A stretch of DNA of 486 bases from a phage, in the sequence record EF517059.1. One strand, 5' to 3'. This document shows, one piece after another, positions 1-486 of this stretch. A program made the position numbers and the translations under genes. The notes under the pieces were generated by a model. The model had not been told where the DNA came from and searched no databases. It worked only from the letters and a program-made list of their open reading frames with translations. Within the stretch, counting starts at the first letter, position 1. Each line of letters opens with the position of its first letter.

Positions 1-134
1 CTCGTAAAGAGGCCACACAGTCACGCGCTCTGGCGATTCGCTCCAACGAACTGACTGACAGTGCATCCACTAAAGTTACCGAGGCTGCCCGTGTGGCAAA
101 CCAAGCTCAACAGCTTTCCAAATTCTTTGAGTAA
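1..134 (+). CDS. 4.3: 3' end of an upstream small phage protein of unknown function, truncated at the window start; consistent by position with T7 gene 4.3. Translated tail in frame 3 (first full codon at nt 3): RKEATQSRALAIRSNELTDSASTKVTEAARVANQAQQLSKFFE*
   Basis: Frame 3 is open from the window edge to TAA at 132-134. It ends 19 nt before the next start codon, the same spacing I recall between T7 genes 4.3 and 4.5. Same strand as the downstream gene and promoter. Identity comes from layout, not from recalled protein sequence. Confidence 0.6.
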   Translation, partial: RKEATQSRALAIRSNELTDSASTKVTEAARVANQAQQLSKFFE

Positions 135-140
135 TCAAAT

Positions 141-146
141 AGGAGA
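141..146 (+). promoter_or_regulatory. Shine-Dalgarno ribosome-binding site (AGGAGA) for the downstream 89-aa ORF
   Basis: AGGAGA at 141-146 lies 7 nt upstream of ATG 154-156, which is typical spacing for phage and E. coli translation initiation. Confidence 0.8.
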
Positions 147-153
147 AATCATT

Positions 154-423
154 ATGTCTAACGTAGCTGAAACTATCCGTCTATTCGATACAGCTGACCA
201 GTGGAACCGTCGAGTCCACATCAACGTTCGCAACGGTAAGGCGACTATGGTTTACCGCTGGAAGGACTCTAAGTCCTCTAAGAATCACACTCAGCGTATG
301 ACGTTGACAGATGAGCAAGCACTGCGTCTGGTCAATGCGCTTACCAAAGCTGCCGTGACAGCAATTCATGAAGTTGGTCGTGTCAATGAAGCTATGGCTA
401 TTCTCGACAAGATTGATAACTAA
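154..423 (+). CDS. 4.5: Small phage protein, 89 aa, consistent with T7 gp4.5 (reported Lon protease inhibitor / anti-toxin-antitoxin defence factor). Sequence: MSNVAETIRLFDTADQWNRRVHINVRNGKATMVYRWKDSKSSKNHTQRMTLTDEQALRLVNALTKAAVTAIHEVGRVNEAMAILDKIDN
   Basis: ATG at 154 with AGGAGA 7 nt upstream, TAA stop at 421-423, 270 nt giving 89 aa. This matches the length I recall for T7 gene 4.5, as do the 19-nt gap to the upstream stop and the 62-nt distance from the stop to the promoter +1 G. Product identity is by position and size, not by recalled residues. Confidence 0.85.
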   Translation: MSNVAETIRLFDTADQWNRRVHINVRNGKATMVYRWKDSKSSKNHTQRMTLTDEQALRLVNALTKAAVTAIHEVGRVNEAMAILDKIDN

Positions 424-436
424 AAGTGGTATCCTC

Positions 437-459
437 AAGGTCGCCAAAGTGGTGGCCTT
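437..459 (+). other. Predicted RNA hairpin in the intergenic region (stem 437-445 paired with 451-459, loop AAAGU); possibly part of the T7 R4.7 RNase III processing site
   Basis: AAGGUCGCC (437-445) pairs with GGUGGCCUU (451-459): 7 Watson-Crick and 2 G-U pairs by manual folding. In T7 an RNase III site (R4.7) maps between gene 4.5 and phi4.7, and this is the only obvious structured element in the 62-nt gap. The full RNase III substrate is probably larger and may extend to about nt 470. Confidence 0.4.
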
Positions 460-463
460 CATG

Positions 464-486
464 AATACTATTCGACTCACTATAGG
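464..486 (+). promoter_or_regulatory. T7 RNA polymerase class II promoter, truncated at the window end; consistent with T7 phi4.7. Predicted +1 G at nt 485.
   Basis: Positions 473-486 read CGACTCACTATAGG, an exact match to the -12..+2 core of the T7 promoter consensus TAATACGACTCACTATAGG. Positions 468-472 (CTATT) differ from the consensus TAATA at -17, -16 and -13, which is typical of weaker class II promoters. The spacing to the upstream stop matches phi4.7 in T7. Confidence 0.9.

What the first reader, a model, noticed from the sequence alone, without database searches (positions are those of the whole stretch)
154..423. 89-aa ORF likely encodes gp4.5, a reported Lon protease inhibitor and phage counter-defence factor
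T7 gp4.5 has been reported to bind and inhibit host Lon protease, which blocks Lon-dependent activation of an abortive-infection toxin-antitoxin system. If this ORF is gp4.5 it is an anti-defence gene inside an otherwise DNA-metabolism cluster. The sequence shows a basic N-terminal half (WNRRVHINVRNGK...RWKDSKSSKNH) and a probably helical C-terminal half (TDEQALRLVNALTKAAVTAIHEVGRVNEAMAILDKI), an arrangement typical of small protein-binding phage inhibitors.
Basis: partly seen in the sequence, partly recalled or inferred. Interest (0 to 1): 0.55.

Follow-up and report, generated by a model that had tools for sequence, protein, structure and literature searches.

The report
Phage T7 gene 4.5, mutated allele
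The ORF is phage T7 gene 4.5, whose product is already reported to inhibit the host Lon protease and counter a toxin-antitoxin defence, so the finding is correct but ordinary; this copy carries two amino-acid changes and looks like it comes from a chemically mutagenised laboratory T7.

Summary
Window 154-423 is an 89-codon ORF with a Shine-Dalgarno site (AGGAG, 141-145). It corresponds to T7 gene 4.5 (T7 13584-13853). The whole window aligns without gaps to T7 13431-13916 at 98.4% identity. It holds the 3' end of gene 4.3, gene 4.5, a hairpin where I recall the R4.7 RNase III site, and the phi4.7 promoter. The protein is 87/89 identical to T7 gp4.5 and matches Pfam PF17574 "Inhibitor of toxin/antitoxin system (Gp4.5)" end to end (202.7 bits, cut-off 27).

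The functional reading is published knowledge (Sberro et al. 2013, as cited by several papers read here). It says gp4.5 binds and inhibits Lon, so the antitoxin is not degraded and sanaTA abortive infection is not triggered. I could not test it.

- All 8 differences from T7 are G:C>A:T transitions. The exact protein equals GenBank ABR22883.1, one of a series of T7 variant records. This suggests a mutagenised T7 isolate.
- One change, S11F, hits a Ser present in 60 of 66 relatives, so this allele may be impaired.

Verdict: already known, low interest.

The parts
3..134 (+). 3' part of gene 4.3: the last 43 of 70 codons plus the TAA stop at 132-134. It carries one change relative to T7 (G54A, A45T).
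   Evidence: The translation ends ...SKFFE*. Pfam DUF5471 matches profile positions 28-70 of 70, E 1e-26. T7 annotates gene 4.3 at 13352-13564.
141..145 (+). Shine-Dalgarno sequence AGGAG of gene 4.5, 8 nt before the ATG. It is flanked by two C>T changes (140 and 149) that leave the core intact.
   Evidence: Read directly from the sequence and compared with T7.
154..423 (+). Gene 4.5 coding sequence, 89 aa plus TAA. This is the reported Lon-binding inhibitor of toxin/antitoxin abortive infection. The allele has S11F (C185T), A74V (C374T) and two synonymous C>T changes (381, 402).
   Evidence: 87/89 identity to T7 gp4.5. PF17574 matches 1-89 of 89 at 202.7 bits. The exact sequence equals ABR22883.1 / A9XL11_BPT7.
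425..472 (+). RNA hairpin between genes 4.5 and 4.7, where I place the T7 R4.7 RNase III processing site. G424A removes the basal G-C pair that T7 has.
   Evidence: The fold gives -19.5 kcal/mol, z -2.65, against -23.1 kcal/mol, z -3.52 for the T7 sequence. An R4.7 site is listed among T7 RNase sites in PMC6938266. Its coordinate (T7 13892 = window 462) is from my memory of Dunn & Studier 1983 and is not annotated in the records read.
468..486 (+). T7 RNA polymerase promoter phi4.7, positions -17 to +2 (start site at window 485), cut off by the window end.
   Evidence: The T7 records annotate promoter phi4.7 at 13915, which is window 485. It matches the class III consensus TAATACGACTCACTATAGG at 16 of 19 positions.

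Best explanation
Window 154-423 is an allele of bacteriophage T7 gene 4.5. It is a non-essential class II (middle) gene. T7 RNA polymerase transcribes it from upstream promoters such as phi4.3, and it is translated from its own AGGAG site. The mRNA is probably processed at the downstream hairpin that I take to be R4.7. The published mechanism is that the 89-aa product binds the host Lon protease and blocks its proteolysis. Lon-labile antitoxins such as SanaA then survive during infection, the toxin stays neutralised, and the toxin-antitoxin abortive-infection response is not triggered. Shown here: the identity of the gene, its family, its position, its expression signals and its predicted fold (a basic four-stranded sheet followed by two helices, with conservation concentrated in residues 5-67). 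Taken from the literature and not tested here: Lon binding, Lon inhibition and the sanaTA counter-defence phenotype. Inferred: this copy comes from a chemically mutagenised laboratory T7 population. Its S11F change lies in the conserved L-S-D-T-x-D-Q loop and may weaken the protein, which would be tolerated because the gene is dispensable on laboratory hosts.
For: The window is 98.4% identical over its full length, without gaps, to T7 13431-13916, and genes 4.3 and 4.5 are annotated under the match. The protein is 87/89 identical to T7 gp4.5. Pfam PF17574 TA_inhibitor (Gp4.5) matches at 7e-61 over the full length. All 21 family-invariant residues are retained. Sources name cluster members 'Inhibitor of toxin/antitoxin system'. 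[quoted passage not shown] A knockout screen found gene 4.5 more important on UTI strains that carry the Lon-controlled CcdAB system. For the mutagenised origin: 8 of 8 differences are G:C>A:T. At 7 of the 8 sites all three natural relatives keep the T7 base, and in those relatives only 36 of 102 differences from T7 are of this type. Sibling GenBank entries ABR22861/67/73 carry A74V alone, and A9XKZ7 carries four other changes (G28D, M49I, A67V, G75S). GC>AT is the dominant spectrum of nitrosoguanidine- or hydroxylamine-treated T7 (PMC6042481).
Against: The Lon mechanism rests essentially on one primary study that I could not read. One citing paper words it cautiously ('might inhibit'), and a 2024 review says the benefit of Lon inhibition to the phage remains to be defined. 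No solved structure of gp4.5 or of a gp4.5-Lon complex exists in the PDB copy. The predicted fold resembles nucleic-acid binders, not protease inhibitors. A preprint proposes broader ATPase inhibition and a weak anti-RADAR role. S11F replaces a Ser found in 60 of 66 relatives (Pro in the other 6), so this allele may not be active. I did not confirm that the ABR228xx records come from a mutagenesis experiment.
Confidence: 0.85

Rival explanations
1. The gene is gp4.5, but this allele is a damaged passenger. S11F, perhaps together with A74V, reduces folding or target binding, and the change persisted only because gene 4.5 is dispensable on laboratory E. coli under heavy mutagenesis.
For: Position 11 is Ser in 60 and Pro in 6 of 66 relatives, and never a large hydrophobic residue. 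It sits in the conserved L10-S11-D12-T13-x-D15-Q16 loop. RefSeq notes the gene as 'not essential in T7'. The allele is absent from all 50,697 phage genome records, where the best match is 97.8%. The G:C>A:T spectrum points to mutagenesis.
Against: The AF2 model of this very sequence is still confident (pLDDT 86.3), with the 11-20 block at 72. Position 74 is variable in the family (S, N, D, A, G and others), and A74V is shared by several sibling records, so it is probably harmless. One substitution in a loop often has no effect.
Confidence: 0.25
2. Lon inhibition is not the primary activity. gp4.5 is a small PC4/PUR/Whirly-like nucleic-acid-binding protein of the T7 DNA-metabolism module, or a general inhibitor of AAA+/ATPase machines, and the Lon and sanaTA effects are one consequence of that.
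Confidence: 0.12
3. The ORF is a chance open frame, or the real product is the 120-aa GTG-initiated form or the 99-aa antisense ORF.
For: Both alternative ORFs exist mechanically.
Against: The Pfam match covers only residues 32-120 of the long form. Relatives begin at the ATG. The GTG extension overlaps gene 4.3 in another frame, and I saw no AGGAG-like site before it in the sequence. The antisense ORF has no family match, and every annotated gene in the T7 stretches read lies on the + strand. The 89-aa family is conserved in 809 phage genomes.
Confidence: 0.01

Closest known systems
Bacteriophage T7 gp4.5 (NP_041980.1 / CAA24410.1; Pfam PF17574 TA_inhibitor)
   Same: It has the same length (89 aa) and 87/89 identical residues. 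It lies in the same position between gene 4.3 and the phi4.7 promoter, with the same ribosome-binding site and downstream hairpin. It matches the Pfam model over its full length.
   Different: It has S11F at a nearly invariant Ser and A74V at a variable site. There are two synonymous changes and three intergenic changes in the window, all G:C>A:T.
GenBank ABR22883.1 / UniRef100_A9XL11 ('Uncharacterized protein 4.5', Escherichia phage T7)
   Same: The protein sequence is identical.
   Different: None at protein level. I could not read the nucleotide record or its publication.
Phage T4 PinA, the other phage-encoded Lon inhibitor
   Same: By published description it works in the same way: a small phage protein that directly targets host Lon.
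   Different: No relationship was detected. tblastn hits of gp4.5 in the phage collection go to Enterobacterales and Pasteurella phages, and every listed record is a 36-42 kb genome. I did not compare the two sequences directly.
PC4 / PUR-alpha / Whirly four-strand-plus-helix nucleic-acid-binding units (e.g. 3n8b, 8chw, 4bg7, 4koo)
   Different: There is no sequence similarity. gp4.5 has a second helix. Neither dimerisation nor nucleic-acid binding is known. The Foldseek E-values are not significant.

Membership tests
T7 gp4.5 family (Pfam PF17574, TA_inhibitor) | Sequence scores above the curated Pfam gathering threshold over the whole model | tested here: met
   202.7 bits against a cut-off of 27, residues 1-89 on profile 1-89 of 89, E 7.1e-61.
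T7 gp4.5 family (Pfam PF17574, TA_inhibitor) | Orthologous position in a T7-like genome: after gene 4.3, before the phi4.7 promoter and gene 4.7, between primase/helicase and DNA polymerase | tested here: met
   The window aligns without gaps to T7 13431-13916, and the T7 annotation gives these neighbours. The same order is seen in YpsP-G, Sal_R1S and WX1.
T7 gp4.5 family (Pfam PF17574, TA_inhibitor) | Retention of the residues conserved across the family | tested here: inconclusive
   All 21 invariant columns are retained (T7 I8 T13 D15 R19 H22 N24 V25 K29 T31 V33 Y34 R35 W36 H45 Q47 R48 T50 L51 Q55 L59). However, Ser11, which is Ser in 60 and Pro in 6 of 66 relatives, is Phe here.
T7 gp4.5 family (Pfam PF17574, TA_inhibitor) | Binds E. 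coli Lon and inhibits its proteolysis | not testable with these tools
   Known only from the literature for wild-type T7 gp4.5. No solved complex exists in the PDB copy.
T7 gp4.5 family (Pfam PF17574, TA_inhibitor) | Needed for T7 growth on hosts carrying the Lon-dependent sanaTA abortive-infection module | not testable with these tools
   Reported for T7 lacking 4.5. Not known for this allele.
PC4 / PUR / Whirly-like nucleic-acid-binding fold | Four antiparallel strands followed by a helix, superposable on known members | tested here: inconclusive
   [not shown]
PC4 / PUR / Whirly-like nucleic-acid-binding fold | Sequence or profile similarity to PC4 (PF02229), Whirly or PurA families | tested here: not met
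   No such Pfam hit at E up to 1. hhalign of the gp4.5 alignment against the T5 PC4 homolog T5.115 gives probability 0.18%. A profile search of PDB sequences finds none.
PC4 / PUR / Whirly-like nucleic-acid-binding fold | Binds single-stranded DNA or RNA, usually as a pair of units | not testable with these tools
   No multimer prediction or binding assay is available here.

The most novel reading that the evidence does not exclude
gp4.5 is a divergent single PC4/PUR/Whirly-type unit. It dimerises and uses its basic, aromatic-rich sheet either to bind single-stranded nucleic acid or to imitate a nucleic-acid or substrate ligand of Lon (E. coli Lon is itself a DNA-binding protease, from my own knowledge). 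This would give a structural mechanism for a phage Lon inhibitor that has none so far. It would also link the gene to its DNA-metabolism neighbours.
Probability: 0.12. Interest if true: 0.45.

Novelty: already known. Interest (0 to 1): 0.1.

Why it matters
It matters little as a discovery. Gene 4.5 of T7 has been annotated since the genome was first sequenced, its anti-toxin-antitoxin role through Lon was published in 2013, and Pfam already has a family named for it. First, this copy is a variant allele with a G:C>A:T-only mutation pattern, and it should not be assumed to be functionally wild type. Second, the protein still has no structural mechanism, and its predicted fold points to nucleic-acid-binding PUR/PC4/Whirly units. 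That gives a cheap, testable hypothesis for how it engages Lon.

Tried and rejected
- I tried to read the primary paper (Sberro et al. 2013, as PMC3644417) and the T7 mutagenesis papers (as PMC2815918 and PMC1865999). None is held, so function and provenance rest on citing papers.
- Literature searches for the origin of the ABR228xx records found nothing specific. One search was wasted on word-start matches.
- A search of PDB sequences with the single protein found nothing. The family profile found only insignificant matches of helix 1 to tautomerase subunits (E 0.16-0.83), which I rejected as chance.
- The sigma-70 promoter and intrinsic terminator scan found none in the window. That is expected for a region transcribed by T7 RNA polymerase.
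- The afdb50 fold library was not available.
- A profile search of 1.84 billion representatives gave 23 hits. Four of the five long ones (532-1951 aa, with 4-11 matched stretches each) were read, and three of those are visibly tandem-repeat proteins. I set all five aside as spurious. One 186-aa protein carries a divergent C-terminal gp4.5-like domain. So there are no distant cellular relatives.
- hhalign against the T5 PC4 homolog was negative. I ran no further search on deepening that profile, because the gp4.5 alignment itself has low diversity (Neff 2.2).
- The antisense 99-aa ORF and the 120-aa GTG-extended ORF were rejected.

Full report
**1. What is in the window**

The 486-base window aligns without gaps to bacteriophage T7 positions 13431-13916 at 98.4% identity (8 mismatches). 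This holds in every T7 genome record listed, and genes 4.3 and 4.5 are annotated under the match. The T7 record V01146 gives the local map:
- gene 4A/4B primase/helicase
- genes 4.2 and 4.3
- gene 4.5 (13584-13853)
- promoter phi4.7 (13915)
- gene 4.7
- gene 5 DNA polymerase

In window coordinates the features are:
- **3-134:** the last 43 codons and stop of gene 4.3. Pfam DUF5471 matches profile positions 28-70 of 70.
- **141-145:** the Shine-Dalgarno sequence AGGAG.
- **154-423:** gene 4.5.
- **425-472:** an RNA hairpin of -19.5 kcal/mol.
- **468-486:** promoter phi4.7, cut at +2. It matches the consensus at 16 of 19 positions.

No sigma-70 promoter or intrinsic terminator is present. That fits a region read by T7 RNA polymerase.

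**2. Checking the observation**

ORF length alone would not be convincing. The same frame is open from GTG 61 (120 aa), and the opposite strand has a 99-aa ORF.

Three things support the ATG at 154:
- The Pfam match begins at that Met.
- The N-termini of relatives begin there.
- The ribosome-binding site lies 8 nt upstream.

The antisense ORF matches no family.

The composition claim holds. Residues 1-50 have pI 10.96 and residues 51-89 have pI 4.95. An AlphaFold2 model built on 67 family sequences is confident (pLDDT 86.3, pTM 0.67). It shows strands at 5-9, 20-26, 29-37 and 44-50, then helices at 53-73 and 77-88. So the C-terminal half is helical as guessed. The N-terminal half is a four-stranded sheet, not a disordered basic tail.

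**3. Identity**

The protein is 87/89 identical to T7 gp4.5 (E 1e-64). It matches Pfam PF17574, "Inhibitor of toxin/antitoxin system (Gp4.5)", over the whole model at 202.7 bits against a cut-off of 27. PHROGs places it in phrog_2254, of unknown function.

The family is narrow:
- 74 clusters at 90% identity among 5.8 billion sequences.
- About 18 genuine representatives at 50% identity among 1.84 billion. The five other long hits have 4-11 matched stretches each. I read four of them, three are visibly tandem-repeat proteins, and I set all five aside as spurious.
- 809 of 50,697 phage genome records. The listed ones are 36-42 kb genomes of Enterobacterales and Pasteurella phages.

Conservation is concentrated in residues 5-67, and the last helix is variable.

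**4. Mechanism**

What gp4.5 does is published, and I could not test it. Papers read here, all citing Sberro et al. 2013, state the following:
- gp4.5 interacts with Lon and inhibits it.
- The proposed logic is that blocking Lon prevents antitoxin degradation and hence toxin activation.

A knockout screen found gene 4.5 more important on UTI strains that carry the Lon-controlled CcdAB system. It also found a weak effect (about a 70% drop in plating) against one RADAR system, and its authors suggested a more general ATPase-inhibitor role. A 2024 review notes that the benefit of Lon inhibition to the phage remains to be defined.

No structure of gp4.5 or of a complex exists in the PDB copy searched. 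The primary paper is not in the library.

I therefore accept the Lon-inhibitor mechanism as the best-supported account, at about 0.75 for the mechanism itself. The gene identity is essentially certain.

**5. What differs in this copy**

All eight differences from T7 are G:C>A:T transitions:

| Change | Location | Effect |
|---|---|---|
| G54A | gene 4.3 | gp4.3 A45T |
| C140T | beside the ribosome-binding site | core intact |
| C149T | spacer between ribosome-binding site and ATG | none evident |
| C185T | gene 4.5 | gp4.5 S11F |
| C374T | gene 4.5 | gp4.5 A74V |
| C381T | gene 4.5 | synonymous |
| C402T | gene 4.5 | synonymous |
| G424A | just after the stop codon | loses a hairpin base pair |

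At seven of the eight sites, three natural relatives (YpsP-G, Sal_R1S, WX1) carry the T7 base, so the window's states are derived. In those relatives only 36 of 102 differences from T7 are G>A or C>T. At that proportion, eight of eight would be expected with probability about 2e-4.

The exact protein is GenBank ABR22883.1 (UniRef A9XL11), labelled Escherichia phage T7. Sibling entries ABR22861/67/73 carry A74V alone. Another entry, A9XKZ7, carries four different substitutions: G28D, M49I, A67V and G75S. I read these four as G:C>A:T changes too, by inferring the codons from T7; the nucleotide record was not seen.

No complete phage genome carries the window's allele (best 97.8%). GC>AT dominance is what is reported for T7 grown with nitrosoguanidine or treated with hydroxylamine (PMC6042481).

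I infer that the window comes from an isolate of a mutagenised laboratory T7 population. I could not confirm the source publication.

Functionally:
- Position 74 is variable in the family.
- Position 11 is Ser in 60 and Pro in 6 of 66 relatives. It sits in the conserved L-S-D-T-x-D-Q loop, so S11F may weaken the protein. This would be tolerated because RefSeq notes the gene as not essential.
- G424A removes the basal G-C pair of the downstream hairpin (-23.1 kcal/mol in T7 against -19.5 kcal/mol here).

That hairpin is where I place the R4.7 RNase III site. The site is named in PMC6938266. Its coordinate, 13892, is from my memory of Dunn & Studier 1983.

**6. A lead from the fold**

Both structure searches of the PDB put the same kind of protein at the top, the four-strand-plus-helix nucleic-acid-binding unit:
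- Foldseek: top hit the T5 PC4 homolog (E 0.026), followed by Whirly proteins, PBF-2, MoSub1 and MRP1/2.

The resemblance is only structural:
- No Pfam hit to PC4, Whirly or PurA appears at E up to 1.
- hhalign against the T5 PC4 homolog gives probability 0.18%. I identified that homolog as T5.115 by a Pfam PC4 match at 8e-8.
- No Foldseek E-value reaches 0.001.

**7. Verdict**

This is T7 gene 4.5, an already described anti-defence gene with its own Pfam family.

- Novelty: already known.
- Interest: low (0.1).
- The only non-trivial residue is the unexplained structural basis of Lon inhibition and the PUR/PC4-like predicted fold. I put the probability that this reflects real nucleic-acid-type binding or mimicry at about 0.12.

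Noticed in passing
window 54, 140, 149, 185, 374, 381, 402, 424: All 8 differences from T7 are G:C>A:T transitions (6 C>T, 2 G>A). At 7 of the 8 sites, three natural relatives keep the T7 base. In those relatives only 35% of differences from T7 are of this type. This looks like the signature of alkylating-agent or hydroxylamine mutagenesis, or of cytosine deamination, in a laboratory T7 lineage.
   Followed up: partly
window 154-420 (protein): The exact protein equals GenBank ABR22883.1 / UniRef100_A9XL11. Sibling T7 entries ABR22861/67/73 carry only A74V, and A9XKZ7 carries four other substitutions (G28D, M49I, A67V, G75S). This is a series of variant T7 isolates whose source paper I could not find.
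   Followed up: partly
window 424-473: G424A abolishes the basal G-C pair of the hairpin between genes 4.5 and 4.7, which I take to be the R4.7 RNase III site. Predicted stability drops from -23.1 to -19.5 kcal/mol.
   Followed up: partly
[not shown]
   Followed up: partly
window 3-134: The partial gene 4.3 (DUF5471) carries A45T. A preprint reports gp4.3 and gp4.5 as joint weak counters of a RADAR system, so the two neighbouring small genes may act together.
   Followed up: no
P0105 (186 aa, from the representative search): A 186-aa protein carries a divergent gp4.5-like domain at residues 119-176 (PF17574, 45 bits) after an unrelated N-terminal region of about 115 aa. It is the only case seen of the domain fused to something else.
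   Followed up: no
L006 201-470 (Yersinia phage vB_YenP_WX1) and H53 (Klebsiella phage KP32 isolate 194): Public records name the gp4.5 orthologue 'endonuclease VII' and 'tail tubular A-like protein'. These look like annotation errors.
   Followed up: no
L003 23820-24068 (phage T5 gene T5.112, annotated 'transcriptional regulator'): There is a weak, sub-threshold Pfam match to the Tad2-like Thoeris anti-defence domain (E 0.013, 16.4 bits against a cut-off of 25).
   Followed up: no
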